A stretch of DNA of 64,000 bases from NCBI GenBank assembly GCA_045863395.1, contig BTVJ01000002.1, forward strand, positions 160,001-224,000, read 5' to 3'. Below, piece by piece: positions 27,001 to 36,000 of the stretch. Source of the DNA: Myxococcales bacterium. Lineage in GTDB: Bacteria; Myxococcota_A; UBA9042; JABWCM01; BTVJ01. The position numbers are program-made. Position 1 is the stretch's first letter. Each line of letters begins with the position of its first letter.

Positions 27001-30000
27001 GCCCATGATGCGGAAGATGTCGAACTGGGCGTCGCTTCGCTTGGCGAAGGTGTCGGCCACGTAGGTCTTGCCCCACGCGGCGACCGGGATGAGCTGCTGC
27101 TCGACGTGGTCGCAGTAGTTCACGCCAAGGGGGATATTGGCGCACTCGTGGCCGCCGAACACGTTGATGCGCTTGTCGGACTTGATGTGGCTTCCCGTCA
27201 GGTCCTGGCCCTCGTTGCCGTCGCTCTCCAGGTTGAGGACCTCGCCCTGCTCGAGCTGGAAGCTCGCCGGCTGGTTGGCGGGCAGCGAGGGAACGCCCGG
27301 GCCTCCGAGCACGTTGGCCCGCGGGGTGACGGTCACGTTGGTGACCCCCTGCTGGGTGGCGACCACCGTCAGGAAGCCGCGCAGGGTCTCGAGCACGTCG
27401 GCGCGGTGGGGCCACGACATCACGTAGTACTCCATGCCGCCCACGTTGGAGGGCAGGAGCAGCGACGCGTCGTTGGTGTAGACCCCGTCGCCGTTGAGCG
27501 GGTTGAACTGGTGGACCGTCACGGGTGCGGTGGTCACGATGCGGTAGGAGCGCTTGTCCTTGAGGGAGCCATCCAGGTCGCTGCCGAGGGGGAGGGTGAA
27601 GACCTGCAGGGTGCCCTTCTTGACGATGTCGCTGGGCGCGCCGAGCTCCGCTGCCGTTACAATTGTGCCGGTCGCCATGTTCGTGAAGGTGACCTTGGCG
27701 TCGCCGCCGTCGCTGGGCGCTGAGACGACCACGGCCACCGGCTCGAACTCCGCGTCCTCGATGTTGTCCAGGTCCACGGCCCAGTAGTCGCAGCCCAGGT
27801 ACGTGTTCTGCTTGGTGTTCGCCTCGCAGGCGTCGGCGCAGTAGGCCTCCTTCGTCTCGTCGTCGATCTTGCAGAGGCCCCCATCGCCGCAGGGCTCCGG
27901 GTCCAGCCAGGCGGACCCGTCGTTCTTGCACTTCTTGATGCCCGACGTGCCCACGCAGACGCTGGAGCCCGGTGCACAGAGCAGGGACACGCAGGCGCCC
28001 TGATAGCAGGTCTGGCCACCGTCGCAGGTCGCGTCCTCATAGGCGGTGCCGGTGGGGTTGCAGCGCTTGAAGGTCGTGGGGCCCGAGCACTCGGGCGGCT
28101 CCTTGGCCGCCAGGGGCTCACAGATGGGGGCCGTGCAGTAGCCCTGGAAGCACTTCTCGCCGGCGCCGCACTCCTGCTCCTGCCACTCGGTGCCGCTCGG
28201 GTCGCAGACGCCCCGGGTGTCCTCGTCGATACAGGTGCTGACGCCGGGGATGCAGCTATTGCCGATGTCGGGCGCCGAGGCGACGTCCGCCGCCGGGGTG
28301 CCCGTGTCGGGCGTCGGGGTCGAGGTCGCGTCCTTGTCGCCGCCCGGGCCGAAGCCGCCCGGGTTCCCGCCTCCGCTCGTGTCGAACCCGGTGCCTGGCT
28401 GGGTGCCAACGCCTCCGCCTCCGCCGCTGCTGCTGCACGCGGCCGCGATGGACGCTATGAACGCGAACGATCTCAAGAACTTGCTCACGAGGTTCTCCCG
28501 CGGGGGTGGAGGTGCGAGGCCGGTCGCTCGACGGCACCAAGGTAGAGGGCCCGCGCGCGGGAATCAACCCTGAACGGTTCCGGTGCTACGACGGGCGGGA
28601 CGCGCGCAACCGCGTTGTGGCATGATGCGGGCCCAAGTACGGAGGTACACCATGGCGTTCCCCGACCACCTGCTCGACGAGACCCACGTGCAGTTCCGCA
28701 AGGTCTGCGTCGACTTCGCGCGCAGAGAGATCGCCCCCTTCGCCAATGAGTGGGAGGAGGCGGAGGAGTTCCCGCGGGAGCTGTACGCCAAGGCGGCGGC
28801 GGCGGGCCTGCTGGGCGTGTCGTTCCCCGAGGAGGTCGGAGGGAGCGGGGGCACCATCGTGCACGCCATGGTCGCGACGGAGGCGCTGCTGCGGGGGGGC
28901 TCCATGGGCGTGCTCGCGGGGCTCGGCTCCTTGGGCATTGGCCTCCCGCCGGTGGTGCAAGCGGGGGACGGGGACCAGATCGACCGCTTCGTGCGGCCGA
29001 CGCTGGCGGGGGAGACCATCTCGGCCCTGGCGATCACGGAGCCCGACACGGGGTCGGACGTGGCCGGGGTGCGGACGACCGCGCGGCGGGACGGAGACGA
29101 CTGGGTCATCGACGGCGCCAAGATGTTCATCACGTCGGGGGTGCGGGCGGACTTCGTGACGGTGCTGGCGCGGACGGGGCCGGACAAGCACGGGGGCCTC
29201 ACCTTCTTCATGGTGGAGCGGGGGATGCCTGGCTTCACCGTGTCGCGCGCCTTGCGGAAGACTGGGTGGAGGGCCTCGGACACGGCAGAGCTGGCCTTCG
29301 ACGGCGTCCGCGTGCCGGACCGGAACCGAATCGGGAGGGAAGGCGGGGGCTTCCAGACGCTCATGCGCAACTTCCAGGCGGAGCGCATGGGCCTGGCGGT
29401 CTACGGCCACGCGGCGGCAGAGATCGCTCTGGAGGAGGCCTTGAGGTGGGCCCGGGAGCGCAAGGCCTTCGGGCGCCCGCTCGTCGGCTTCCAGGTGACG
29501 CGGCACAAGCTGGCGGACATGGCGATGCGGGTCGTCGCCGCCAAGACCCTGAACTACACGCTGGCCTTGCGGATCGCGGCGGGGGAGATGCTGGTCAAGG
29601 AGGTCTCCCTGGCGAAGAACCTGGCTGCAGAGGCCGCCATGAGCGTGTGCACGGAGGCGGTGCAGATCTTCGGCGGCATGGGCTACATGCGGGAGACCCT
29701 CGTCGAGCGGCTGAGCCGCGACGTGCGCCTGCTGCCCATCGGCGGCGGCACGACGGAGATCATGAAGGAGATCGTCGCGCGGTCCATGGGGCTGTGAGCG
29801 CTGCGTCGGGGACGCCGCGCGCGGGCGGCTGCTCCTGGGTGAATCGGCCGCACCCGCCGCAGGGCATGTCCCCGGCGAGCGGACTCGCGGCGCACGCCGA
29901 CGCCCCGGCGGGCGGCAGCAGACCCTTGACCTCGGGGGCCTTTTGAGGATAGACGCACCCGGTTCGCGGTCCCTGGCCTGTGGAGGCGTTCGTGAATCGG

Positions 30001-33000: not shown

Positions 33001-36000
33001 GACATCGGTGGGGGCACCACCGACCTCTCGCTGATCTCTGCGACGACGGCGACTGGAGGCGTGCCGGCCTTCGAGCGGGTGGCGGTGGGGGCCCACCTGC
33101 TGCTCGGTGGTGACAACCTCGACCTGGCGCTGGCGCGGGTGGTGGAGCAGACCGGTGGGGGCACGCTCGACGCACGGCAGTGGACGACGCTCAGCCATCG
33201 CTGTCGGGTCGCCAAGGAGCTGCTGCTGGCCGACGAGGGACCCGATGGTGTCGCCGTGACCGTGCCGGGCTCCGGGAGCCGGGTGATCGGGGGCGCCCGC
33301 AAGGTGGAGGTGACGCGGGAGCTTGCCGAGCGCGTGCTGCTCGACGGCTTCTTCCCGCTGACGGGGGCGCAGGAGCGGGTGGGGGGCAGGAGGCGAGGGG
33401 GGATCCAGGAGTTTGGCCTCCCGTATGTGCAGGACCCGGCCGTGTCGCGGCACGTGGCGGCCTTCCTGGCGCAGCACGCGGGGCAGGTGGACCCGGAGGC
33501 GCGGTGGGGGGACATGGCGCGCCCGGACGCCATCCTGTTCAACGGCGGCACGGTGAGCCCCCGGCGCATCCAGGAGCGGGTGGTGTCGGTGCTGCGGGGG
33601 TGGTTTCCGGTTGGGAGGGGCGGCGGTGCCTGGGAGCCGCGGGTGCTGGCGAATGGGAGGCCCGACCTCGCGGTCGCGTATGGGGCCGCCTACTACGGCC
33701 TCGTGCGGAGAGGGCACGGGCTGCGCATCGCGGGCGGGTCTCCGCGGGCGTACTACGTGGGGGTGGGGGCGTCGACGGCGGGGCCACCGCCGGTGCCCGG
33801 CAGCGTGCGGGTGGTGTGTCTGCTGCCCCACGGCATCGAGGAGGGCCGCCAGGTGGAGGTGGGGGCGGACCTCCACGCGCGGACCAACGCGGCCGTGAGG
33901 TTTCCCCTGTGGAGCAGCAACACGCGCATGGGCGACCAGCCTGGCGACGTCCTGATGCTGGCGGAGGACACGCTCGCACCGCTCCCGCCGCTCCACACCT
34001 TGCTGCGCTTCGGCAAGAAGGGGGTGGAGAGCAGCATCCCCGTCAAGCTCCAGGCGCAGGTGACGGAGGTGGGCACGCTGGCGCTGTTCTGCGCGTCGCT
34101 CCAGACCCACCACCGGTGGAAGCTGGAGTTCGACCTCAGAGCCGGGTGGGCCGCCGACGGGGACGCCGCGGCGGTGATCGAGACGGAGGCCATCGACGAG
34201 GCGCGTGTCGAGGCGGGACGAGCGCTGATCACGGCCTGCTTTGGGACGGGTGGGGACCCGGCGGGCCTGGTGAAGGAGCTGGAGAAGGCCCTGGATGCGC
34301 CTCGCGACGAGTGGCCATTGGGGGCGATCAGGGCGCTATGGCCCGCGCTGCGGGATGCGGCGGACGGGCGGCGGCGCTCTGCGGCTCACGAGGCGCGGTG
34401 GCTCAACCTCGCGGGCCACTGCCTGCGGCCGGGTACAGGCATGCCCGGCGACGAGATCCGCATCAAGGAGCTGTGGCGGCTGGCTTCGGAAGGCGTGACG
34501 CACCGGCGCGACTCCCAGCCACTCAGCGAGTGGTGGGTGCTGTGGCGGCGGGTGGCGGCGGGCCTGTCGGCGGGCCAGCAGGTCGAGATCACGGGGCGGG
34601 CGCTGCCGCTGGTCATGAGCAAGAAGGTGGACCCGTTCAAGTACGGGCGTGGGGCCCCGGACAAGAACGAGGAGCGGGAGATCTGGTACGCCCTGGCGAG
34701 CCTGGAGCGCATCGAGCGTGCCACCCGGCTCAATCTGGGCGAGACCATCGTCAAGCGGCTCGGCAACCGGGAGACGGCGCGCTACGGGTACTGGGTGCTG
34801 GCGCGGGTCGGCGCGCGGGTGCCGCTCTACGGGCCCGTGTCCGGCGTGCTGCCGCCGGATGTCGTAGGGCGCTGGGTGGACGCGGTGCTGGAGGCGAAGT
34901 GGCACGAGCCTGAGAAGGTGGCCTTCGAGGCGGTGCAGCTCGGGCGCCTGACCGGCGACCGGGCGCGGGATCTGCCGGCCCCGGTGCGCAAGAAGCTGGC
35001 GGCGGCCATCGAGAAGCAGGCGGACGCGTCGCGGCTCACGCAGCTCCTGATGGAGGTCGTCCCCCTGGAGCGGCGGGAGCAGGTGCGGGTCCTCGGCGAC
35101 TCCATCCCCCCCGGGCTCGTCCTGGCGCCGTGAGCCGCGCGGCGACCATGGTCGCGCTGCTGCTCGCCGGCGGGATGGCGAGCGCGGACCACGGCGCAGC
35201 GGGGGGGCGCTGGGGAGGGGCGAGGTGGGCCGAGGGGATCGCGGGAGGCGGGCCTGGGGAGGGAGCCGGCCCCCAGGCGCGGGAGGCGGACGCCGAGCCC
35301 CGTGATCGCGCGGGGGAGCACGTCGCGACCGACACCGCGGGCGCTTCTCGGACCGGCGCAGCTTCGGCAGGAACCTGGCTCGTGCTGTCTCCGGCGACCG
35401 GGATGGTCGAGCCCCCGTGCGCGGAGACGGGCGCCTGCCGCCCCATCCTCTTCGTGCGCCCTGCCGACTGCACCCCCAAGAGCCGCTGGTACTACGAGCG
35501 CCGCACCCAGCGCTGCGAGGCCGAGAGCCGGCTCGTGCTGTTCGTGGACCGGGTGGGGGAGATTCACGGCGCACAGCGCCTGGGAGACCAGCCGGCGGGG
35601 AAGGAGCCGGTCCCCGACGAGGTCCGCCACCTCTGGCGCCACTGCGGTGAGGACGCAGAACCCCGCTGGGACCCGCTGCCGGTGGCGTTCGTCCGTTACG
35701 TGGACCCGGATCTGGGGCGCTGTCTCGTCGCACACCCGGACGCGCAGGAGCTGTCGCCGGACCTGGCGAAGAAGGCCCGCGTGAAGGGCCTCGACACCCT
35801 CCACCCGTTCGTGCGGTACGCCGGCCGGGAGCTGGTCCGCCGGGCCTACGAAGAAGGCATCGAGATCAAGGTGATCAGCGGCCACCGCCACTACAAGGCG
35901 CGGGTGGGCTATGACCGGAACCTCAAGCGGCGGCGTGTGTTGGCGAGCTGGCACGCCTTCGGGGTGGCCCTCGACATCAACATGACGTGGGCGCGGGGCC

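What a model noticed while it worked through the whole genome (the two positions that open the first line are those of the whole stretch)
29992..35133. DUF2760 + two divergent Hsp70s (one fused to DUF3731): a fixed three-gene chaperone-like operon
A DUF2760 protein with a hydrophobic N-terminus is followed by two paralogous Hsp70-like ATPases (584 and 936 aa, about 54% identical to each other) with intact nucleotide-binding motifs, a divergent C-terminal domain and no J-protein or GrpE beside them. The unit is fixed in thousands of genomes.
Evidence so far: DUF2760 near HSP70 in 5526 of 6648 genomes and near DUF3731 in 3313 of 5516. 26 of 151 phylum genomes; DUF2760 adjacent in 22 of 25 loci; invariant GIDLGTT, EEPQAA and DxGGGT-D motifs. 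DUF2760 folds confidently (pLDDT 91) as helical hairpin plus beta domain with no PDB match.
(Added by a program. Inside this text positions count along the whole contig: contig position 160,001 is position 1 of the stretch shown here. "Call 12" and the like, gene names such as g00115 and contig names such as C1 are that model's own, and its searches are not shown. The text may have been shortened before it was handed on; [...] marks where a part breaks off. The agent that wrote the report below was given it as the finding of a first reader that could run no searches.)

Follow-up and report, generated by a model that had tools for sequence, protein, structure and literature searches.

The report
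Membrane-tethered twin Hsp70 operon
Three tightly packed genes encode a small, probably membrane-bound protein and two unusual lid-less relatives of the Hsp70 chaperone that travel together in several bacterial phyla; their job is unknown, and the small protein shows a weak, unproven likeness to the Hsp70 helper GrpE.

Summary
The operon is real: DUF2760 (192 aa), Hsp70-A (584 aa) and Hsp70-B (936 aa, DUF3731 tail), translationally coupled. DUF2760 and DUF3731 mark the same 32 of 201 phylum genomes. No J-domain or GrpE gene lies in 100 flanks. Both Hsp70s keep the catalytic residues and a predicted DnaK-type peptide-binding sandwich but lack the lid and the canonical linker; DUF3731 is an armadillo/HEAT solenoid. 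The scan reported this cassette before in at least 11 other genomes. In M. xanthus it is MXAN_5321-5323; the published MXAN_5323 deletion lowers sporulation and peroxide survival, and the gene cannot replace dnaK.

New here: deep profiles align DUF2760 end to end with GrpE's helix hairpin and beta domain, and one strand pairing covaries in the same register. But HMM searches find nothing, hhalign gives 0.8%, and the best GrpE structural match is Z 4.4. GrpE kinship is therefore suggested (about 40%), not shown. Best reading: a dedicated, membrane-tethered, J-independent Hsp70 machine with its own exchange factor or adaptor; client unknown.

The parts
29982..29986 (+). Shine-Dalgarno-like GGAGG, 5 nt before the DUF2760 start
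   Evidence: sequence
29992..30570 (+). DUF2760 protein, 192 aa: N-terminal amphipathic helix (residues 2-15; inferred membrane anchor), Pro/Ala/Lys-rich linker (about 30-67), kinked helix + helix hairpin (68-119) and small beta domain (120-192) whose motif order resembles GrpE's C-terminal half
   Evidence: Pfam; model; hydropathy; GrpE comparison
30572..32326 (+). Hsp70-A, 584 aa: NBD with all catalytic residues (about 6-440), altered linker, SBD-beta-like sandwich (about 450-580), no lid
   Evidence: homology to the modelled beta domain of B
32323..35133 (+). Hsp70-B, 936 aa: NBD (about 6-462), SBD-beta-like sandwich (about 475-605), variable linker, DUF3731 armadillo/HEAT solenoid (about 625-934) in place of the lid

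Best explanation
A dedicated, self-contained Hsp70-derived machine at the cytoplasmic face of the membrane. DUF2760 is anchored by its N-terminus (transmembrane helices in most lineages, an amphipathic helix in this one) and holds out, on a flexible linker, a GrpE-like hairpin-plus-beta domain. That domain binds the nucleotide-binding domain of Hsp70-A and/or -B, tethering them and most likely speeding ADP release, as GrpE does for DnaK. A and B arose from one old duplication and are both ATPases with a peptide-binding sandwich but no lid, so they should grip clients only briefly. B's armadillo solenoid takes the lid's place as a surface that selects a specific client or partner. The changed J-domain contact and linker suggest the cycle is not driven by ordinary DnaJ. 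The job is specialised (stationary phase, development, oxidative stress), not general heat-shock refolding. SHOWN here: co-occurrence, intact catalytic residues, absence of lid, altered linker. PREDICTED: SBD-beta and ARM folds. INFERRED: membrane tethering, binding of DUF2760 to the NBD, exchange activity, J-independence, client selection by DUF3731.
For: Identical presence pattern of DUF2760 and DUF3731 (32 of 201 genomes, one copy each), including 10 genomes where the two hits lie on different contigs or 9-18 kb apart. No fourth conserved gene in 101 neighbourhoods. B is one clade across phyla (support 100), separate from A (quick tree). Catalytic positions equal to DnaK D8, T11, K70, E171, D194, T199, D201 are invariant in 64 A and 52 B. 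The beta domain's top Foldseek hits are DnaK SBD (E 6e-4), and in A it is as conserved as the NBD (0.75 vs 0.71). 112 of 145 distant DUF2760 representatives have a hydrophobic segment of KD 1.6 or more before the domain. GrpE likeness: 94-column end-to-end hhalign in motif register; own profile score beaten by 0-1 of 100 column shuffles, 1-16 of 200 block shuffles and 0-1 of 44 decoy windows, over three gap settings; exact-register covariation p 0.001-0.009; GrpEL1 (9blt_B) third of 274 chains in the second look, Z 4.4. M. xanthus MXAN_5323 does not complement E. coli dnaK, and its deletion lowers sporulation and H2O2 survival (PMC8265645, passages); RNA-seq change on heat shock is 1.1x, 1.7x and 0.7x for the three genes.
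Against: GrpE homology is below every standard threshold: hhalign probability 0.3-3.8% in all runs; no cross-hit in the genome; 0 of 66 members hit PF01025; no GrpE in the PDB sequence search, none among the printed Foldseek rows or the top 50 of the wide structure search. The GrpEL1 match covers only 56 residues (helices and first strand, rmsd 5.2), not the beta domain. The first covariation test (rank overlap) was not significant, p 0.3-0.7; the significant second test rests on one strand pairing, vanishes without it (p 0.11-0.77) and weakens to p 0.06-0.10 on half the data. I chose GrpE after seeing the motifs by eye. DUF2760 lacks GrpE's long coiled-coil stalk. In 3 of 68 loci DUF2760 has no Hsp70 next to it. 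All four non-canonical hsp70 deletions in PMC8265645 gave the same mild phenotypes, so these are not specific. The paper's text lists MXAN_5323 as an exception to 'unchanged or decreased' on heat shock, at odds with its own data table.
Confidence: 0.45

Rival explanations
1. Same machine, different division of labour: DUF2760 is only a membrane tether, activator or the client itself, unrelated to GrpE. Nucleotide exchange comes from DUF3731 acting like the armadillo exchange factors HspBP1/Sil1, or from an A-B heterodimer like Hsp70-Hsp110 or Ssb-Ssz1.
For: DUF3731 is an armadillo solenoid of about 300 residues; the HspBP1 core aligns over 223 residues at Z 11.2, and HspBP1's exchange domain is a 260-residue armadillo array that wraps subdomain IIB (PMC4753570, passages). 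Two paralogues are kept across phyla. All standard searches miss GrpE.
Against: HspBP1 is only rank 46; importins, CAND1 and designed armadillos score higher (Z 12-14.6), so the match is generic. Both paralogues keep full catalytic sets, and the GrpE-like motif order would then be chance.
Confidence: 0.28
2. Not a chaperone: the two ATPases are repurposed actin-fold switches or scaffolds (in the manner of PilM, FtsA or MreB; recalled) that dock on a membrane protein and use the sandwich and solenoid purely as assembly surfaces.
For: No lid, altered linker, family-specific insertions in the NBD, and a swap on the ribose-binding helix (DnaK E267 to R in 62 of 64 A; I271 to E in all A and B) that I recall as actin-like. 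The review PMC13580251 (section 6) argues that many such derivatives lost polypeptide-driven activation.
Against: The best sequence matches are DnaK/HscA, not MreB; an SBD-beta fold is kept and strongly conserved, as are allosteric positions P143, F146 and R151 (their role recalled).
Confidence: 0.12
3. Ordinary auxiliary stress chaperones served in trans by the cell's DnaJ and GrpE; the operon is just a co-regulated block.
For: The genome has 5 J-domain genes over cut-off and 3 GrpE genes; mutant phenotypes are general.
Against: The DnaK R167 position is mostly T (35 of 52 B; profile of A), N170 is E in all, and the hydrophobic linker carries invariant Arg. No dnaK complementation. Strict co-occurrence with DUF2760 needs a reason.
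Confidence: 0.1
4. An anti-phage or conflict system.
For: Patchy distribution (32 of 201; 0 of 14 control genomes); Hsp70s occur in conflict systems (PMC7159879, passages); weak PADLOC match to PDC-M61B over about 90 residues of the NBD (E 3.5e-5).
Against: Single copy, high conservation, no variable effector, no conserved defence neighbour; no match in 50,697 phage records and only 11 of 72,556 plasmid records, 8 of them 0.9-3.5 Mb replicons; distribution follows families (12 of 15 in one, 0 of 18 and 0 of 19 in others).
Confidence: 0.05

Closest known systems
Pfam PF10816 (DUF2760) / Hsp70-family / Hsp70-PF12531 (DUF3731) cassette; M. xanthus MXAN_5321-5323
   Same: Same families, order and sizes: MXAN_5321 'DUF2760 domain-containing', MXAN_5322 (620 aa) and MXAN_5323 (925 aa) are adjacent on one strand (supplement rows of PMC8265645). 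V. cholerae VC1373-1375 is very likely the same (two 'DnaK-related' genes in one operon; a V. cholerae DUF2760), but I did not see its sequence under that tag.
   Different: Nothing substantial; this window is a further member. Its N-terminal anchor is the amphipathic type.
DnaK-DnaJ-GrpE
   Same: NBD with all catalytic residues, SBD-beta fold, a small partner with a helix hairpin plus beta domain.
   Different: Far below the DnaK model cut-offs (57-73 bits vs 648-823); no lid; linker changed; two paralogues; no J gene; the partner is membrane-anchored, lacks the coiled-coil stalk and is not detected by PF01025.
HscA-HscB and HscC-DjlB/DjlC (specialised bacterial Hsp70s)
   Same: Dedicated Hsp70 with its own co-encoded partner; HscC's partners are membrane-anchored (recalled, and an earlier finding's note).
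   Different: Those partners are J-proteins, and HscA and HscC do not depend on GrpE (PMC4753570); HscA models score 57-96 bits vs cut-offs 620-743.
Eukaryotic paired Hsp70s and armadillo exchange factors (Hsp70-Hsp110, Ssb-Ssz1, HspBP1/Sil1)
   Same: Two diverged Hsp70s in one system; lid-less member (Ssz1/HspA14, PMC13580251 passage); armadillo domain linked to an Hsp70.
   Different: No specific homology shown; the armadillo match is generic (rank 46); here the solenoid is fused to the Hsp70.

Membership tests
DUF2760 / DUF3731 cassette | PF10816 and PF12531 over gathering thresholds, order DUF2760-Hsp70-Hsp70+DUF3731 | tested here: met
   166 and 262 bits vs cut-off 25; order
Hsp70 superfamily | Actin-fold NBD with phosphate-1, K70, E171, D194/T199/D201 and adenosine motifs | tested here: met
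Hsp70 superfamily | SBD-beta sandwich after the NBD | tested here: met
   predicted model of B 462-936; top four Foldseek rows are DnaK SBD, E 6-9e-4; not detectable by sequence
Canonical DnaK | NCBIfam DnaK cut-off | tested here: not met
Canonical DnaK | Alpha-helical lid | tested here: not met
   A ends a few residues after the last strand in all 64 aligned A; B has an armadillo solenoid instead
Canonical DnaK | Hydrophobic interdomain linker (388-DVLLLD-393, PMC13580251) and R167 | tested here: not met
   [VIL]-R-I-R in A, with the first R in 64 of 64; linker register set by eye; R167 mostly T
Canonical DnaK | ATP-coupled peptide binding and release, J-stimulated ATPase | not testable with these tools
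   needs biochemistry; MXAN_5323 did not complement dnaK
GrpE | PF01025 profile match | tested here: not met
   0 of 66 members; no cross-hit
GrpE | Long N-terminal coiled-coil stalk | tested here: not met
   model has a Pro-rich low-confidence linker there
GrpE | Helix hairpin followed by a beta domain of GrpE topology | tested here: inconclusive
   collinear profile alignment; one shared strand pairing; GrpEL1 Z 4.4 over 56 residues; not in the top 50 of the wide search
GrpE | Homodimer that binds the Hsp70 NBD cleft | not tested
GrpE | Accelerates ADP release | not testable with these tools
   needs kinetics
HspBP1/Sil1 exchange factors | Armadillo array of about 260 residues | tested here: met
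   Z 11.2, rmsd 5.6, 223 aligned to 1xqr_A
HspBP1/Sil1 exchange factors | Closer to HspBP1 than to other armadillo/HEAT proteins; binds subdomain IIB | tested here: inconclusive
   rank 46 of 50, others up to Z 14.6; binding untested
Catalogued anti-phage systems (PADLOC) | Full-length match to a system's profiles | tested here: not met
   only a partial NBD match to PDC-M61B; DUF2760 none

The most novel reading that the evidence does not exclude
DUF2760 is a second, stalk-less and membrane-anchored family of GrpE-fold nucleotide exchange factors, and the operon is a complete J-protein-independent Hsp70 machine: a membrane-tethered exchange factor driving a heterodimer of two lid-less ATPases, with a fused armadillo solenoid that replaces the lid as client selector (or as a second, HspBP1-like exchange module).
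Probability: 0.3. Interest if true: 0.75.

Novelty: new variant of a known kind. Interest (0 to 1): 0.5.

Why it matters
What the many non-canonical bacterial Hsp70s do is posed as an open question in a 2026 review (PMC13580251, section 6). This cassette is a compact, conserved case with a genetically tractable host (M. xanthus, one deletion already made). If DUF2760 is an exchange factor, it names a function for a family with 2,042 hits among 50%-identity representatives and shows an Hsp70 cycle run from the membrane without a J-protein. The locus itself is an ordinary member, and the scan has reported the cassette many times; the added value here is a residue-level, testable GrpE hypothesis.

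Tried and rejected
Complex prediction (two DUF2760 domains + Hsp70-A) was not available: queue full, so there is no verdict on binding. Inter-protein covariation on 140 D-A, 112 D-B and 107 A-B pairs (effective number 64-69) gave scattered top pairs, and the within-protein control showed no recognisable contact pattern: uninformative. PDB sequence hits of full-length DUF2760 (alphavirus capsids) come from the Pro-rich linker. The Atlas gave only same-family rows for DUF2760 and DUF3731. The wide structure search of DUF2760 gave best Z 5.4, generic helix hairpins. Shallow hhalign to GrpE failed. HMM scores forward vs reversed shifted the right way (205 of 265 and 480 of 545), but mean scores were near 0 bits and rows are related. 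RNA-library contigs from sludge cover the operon and its flanks alike, so they do not show transcription. No credible promoter or terminator: one 9-of-12 site lies on the gene 1/2 junction. No fused DUF2760 form among the best 120 of 227 longer hits (longest listed 298 aa). A change of nucleotide specificity (E267 to R, I271 to E, S274 to L/F, V340 to N) was considered; I set it aside because I recall the same Lys-Glu arrangement in ATP-binding actin. Literature: 'DUF2760' 0 papers, 'DUF3731' 0 papers; M. xanthus tags and Pfam accessions 1 paper; V. cholerae tags or 'DnaK-related protein' 14; a GrpE-like/conflict search found nothing on this cassette among 20 listed of 24. Subscription journals and bioRxiv supplements were not searchable, including those of a 2026 M. 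xanthus barcoded-transposon preprint seen only in a listing, which may hold fitness data for these genes.
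Full report
OBSERVATION. Three + strand genes fill 29992-35133: a 192-aa DUF2760 protein, a 584-aa Hsp70-like protein (A) and a 936-aa Hsp70-like protein (B) ending in DUF3731. They are one base apart and overlap by four bases. A and B are 50% identical over 610 columns. Both score far below the DnaK and HscA cut-offs. The genome is 8.8 Mb and has its own canonical DnaK, GrpE and J-domain genes elsewhere.

DISTRIBUTION. In 201 genomes of this phylum DUF2760 is in 32, and DUF3731 passes its cut-off in exactly the same 32, one copy each; a 33rd genome has only a sub-threshold hit. By the listed coordinates 22 of the 32 pairs lie within about 5.5 kb, 8 on different contigs and 2 are 9-18 kb apart. 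DUF2760 is in 25 of 401 genomes of the phylum of G031; of the 20 of these 25 that I fetched, 19 show all three genes in order. Among the best 80 of 456 genome loci, 75 have an Hsp70 next to DUF2760 and 57 hold DUF3731; hosts include Myxococcota, Acidobacteriota, Planctomycetota, Binatota, Pseudomonadota, Nitrospirota, Fibrobacterota and Lentisphaerota. No J-domain or GrpE gene was found in 100 flanks. The commonest neighbour clusters in 101 regions are generic signalling and transport families, in at most 20 regions. A quick tree of 58 rows puts all 26 B in one clade (support 100), apart from A and far from DnaK: one old duplication. No phage record and 11 plasmid records match. The scan has reported the cassette in at least 11 other genomes, with look-alikes in 30 windows.

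THE ATPASES. Positions equal to DnaK D8, T11, K70, P143, F146, E171, D194, T199, D201 are invariant in 64 A and 52 B sequences, R151 and K270 nearly so (register for K70, R167-E171 and E267-S274 from the HMMER alignment to 7n46). Both should bind and hydrolyse ATP (inferred). Family-specific changes: R71 to S, Y145 to S, N170 to E, I271 to E and V340 to N in every sequence; R167 mostly T; and a linker with invariant Arg where DnaK has DVLLLD (PMC13580251 section 6 for the DnaK linker; linker register by eye). That R167 and the linker are J-domain contacts is recalled. A model of B 462-936 (pLDDT 86.7) has a beta sandwich followed by a helical solenoid. Foldseek ranks DnaK substrate-binding domains first (E 6e-4); the structural aligner places the solenoid among armadillo/HEAT proteins (Z 11-14.6), HspBP1 at rank 46. 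A ends right after the homologous sandwich, so neither protein has a lid. The sandwich of A is as conserved as its NBD.

DUF2760. The model has an N-terminal helix, a Pro-rich linker, a kinked helix, a second helix and a small beta domain. The N-terminus is hydrophobic in most distant relatives and amphipathic in this clade, which suggests a membrane tether (inferred). By eye the C-terminal motifs follow those of the genome's own GrpE, so I tested kinship. Against: hhalign with shallow alignments gave 0.3-3.8%; HMM cross-searches, Pfam and PDB sequence searches found no GrpE; Foldseek had no hit at E 0.001 and the wide search no GrpE in its top 50. For: among Foldseek's 277 weak matches GrpEL1 came third on realignment, but at Z 4.4, rmsd 5.2, over 56 residues that stop before the beta domain. 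With 545 DUF2760 and 265 GrpE sequences hhalign aligned 94 columns end to end in the motif register, still at 0.8% and E 0.074. My own profile alignment beat nearly all shuffles and decoys. Covariation maps were compared twice in a register fixed from motifs: a rank-overlap test was not significant; a weighted exact-register test gave p 0.001-0.009, with a positive control at p below 0.001. That signal comes from one feature, the strand after helix 2 pairing with the G-W strand (P124-H164, E123-R167), which also holds two of GrpE's four strongest couplings; without that strand it is not significant. R146-E189 also falls on a coupled GrpE pair. I put descent from GrpE at about 40%. This is a little more than earlier notes allowed (e1-7777994: no support; e1-7193405: loose likeness), and well short of membership. 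In GrpE the beta domain makes most DnaK contacts and wedges the cleft open (PMC4753570, passages), so a stalk-less version could still exchange nucleotide.

WHAT IS PUBLISHED. Neither DUF name occurs in the searchable main texts. PMC8265645 (abstract, passages and supplement rows seen): MXAN_5321-5323 are this cassette; expression is about 60-75 FPKM against a genome median of 31, with little heat response; deleting MXAN_5323 lowered sporulation and H2O2 survival like three other non-canonical hsp70 deletions, and the gene did not rescue E. coli dnaK. That MXAN_5323 carries DUF3731 is inferred from its size and position. For V. cholerae only regulatory listings were seen; a 'DnaK-related protein' is also listed in a Thiodictyon proteome (PMC6413534, table passage; identity not checked). 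PMC13580251 (section 6 read, other passages seen) names the function of such DnaK derivatives as open. PMC7159879 (passages) describes Hsp70-GrpE pairs in GTPase-centred conflict systems, a different context.

MECHANISM. Most likely DUF2760 tethers the two ATPases to the membrane and acts on their NBD as exchange factor or adaptor; the lid-less sandwiches bind clients briefly; the solenoid selects client or partner; the cycle does not use ordinary DnaJ (0.45). Rivals: exchange by the solenoid or by an A-B heterodimer with DUF2760 as plain tether (0.28); a non-chaperone actin-fold scaffold (0.12); auxiliary chaperones served in trans (0.10); defence (0.05).

VERDICT. A real, conserved and mechanistically unstudied Hsp70 variant system; this copy is an ordinary member of a cassette that the scan has met many times. 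New variant of a known kind; interest 0.5, rising to about 0.75 if DUF2760 proves to be a membrane-anchored GrpE-fold exchange factor (probability about 0.3 for the full reading).

Noticed in passing
window 35130-36569 (+): An M15-family D,D-carboxypeptidase-like ORF (PF13539, E 2e-9) with a Lys/Gly-rich tail overlaps the stop of Hsp70-B by 4 bases, so it may be co-translated here; no homologue in the other 100 neighbourhoods.
   Followed up: yes
window 28652-29797 (+): Acyl-CoA dehydrogenase upstream on the same strand; not found beside the operon elsewhere.
   Followed up: yes
DUF2760 family N-termini (P0004-P0272): The anchor seems conserved in function, not sequence: one or two strongly hydrophobic segments in most distant representatives (112 of 145 at KD 1.6 or more), a short Phe-rich amphipathic helix in this clade (26 of 120).
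   Followed up: partly
Hsp70-A residues 331-372, Hsp70-B residues 341-382: A family-specific insertion of about 30 residues in the NBD is as conserved as the core (0.75 and 0.69): a candidate partner-binding surface.
   Followed up: no
L046, L050, L077 (Binatia); L071, L079, L083, L088, L091, L092, L105, L116, L120 (Planctomycetota): Lineage-specific splits: DUF2760 directly followed by B with no A in the locus, or DUF2760 plus A with B elsewhere (G034 has DUF3731 on another locus).
   Followed up: partly
Atlas rows 2-3; L122: DUF3731 also occurs in proteins of about 650-700 aa, some clusters without a Pfam HSP70 hit; truncated or NBD-less forms were not examined.
   Followed up: no
G000:C53:3069-5694 (L003, L006, L175): A second non-canonical Hsp70 sits behind a divergent GrpE (E 3.5e-16) and a weak J-domain ORF.
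   Followed up: no
window 21802-23904 (-): A 700-aa ORF with three repeated CPFC thioredoxin/DsbA-like units (seen in the translation; not scanned).
   Followed up: no
window 24631-28488 (-): Two Cys-rich secreted-type proteins: one with TSP3 and MopE-type repeats, one with an IgGFc-binding domain.
   Followed up: no
V. cholerae VC1373-1375 (papers): Regulation points to dense or stationary cultures: the VC1375 promoter is directly activated by HapR (PMC10328515, passages); the operon is listed as repressed in biofilm (PMC9201469, table passage); VC1374 is down 2.7 log2 in a polymyxin B study (PMC5636140, table passage).
   Followed up: partly
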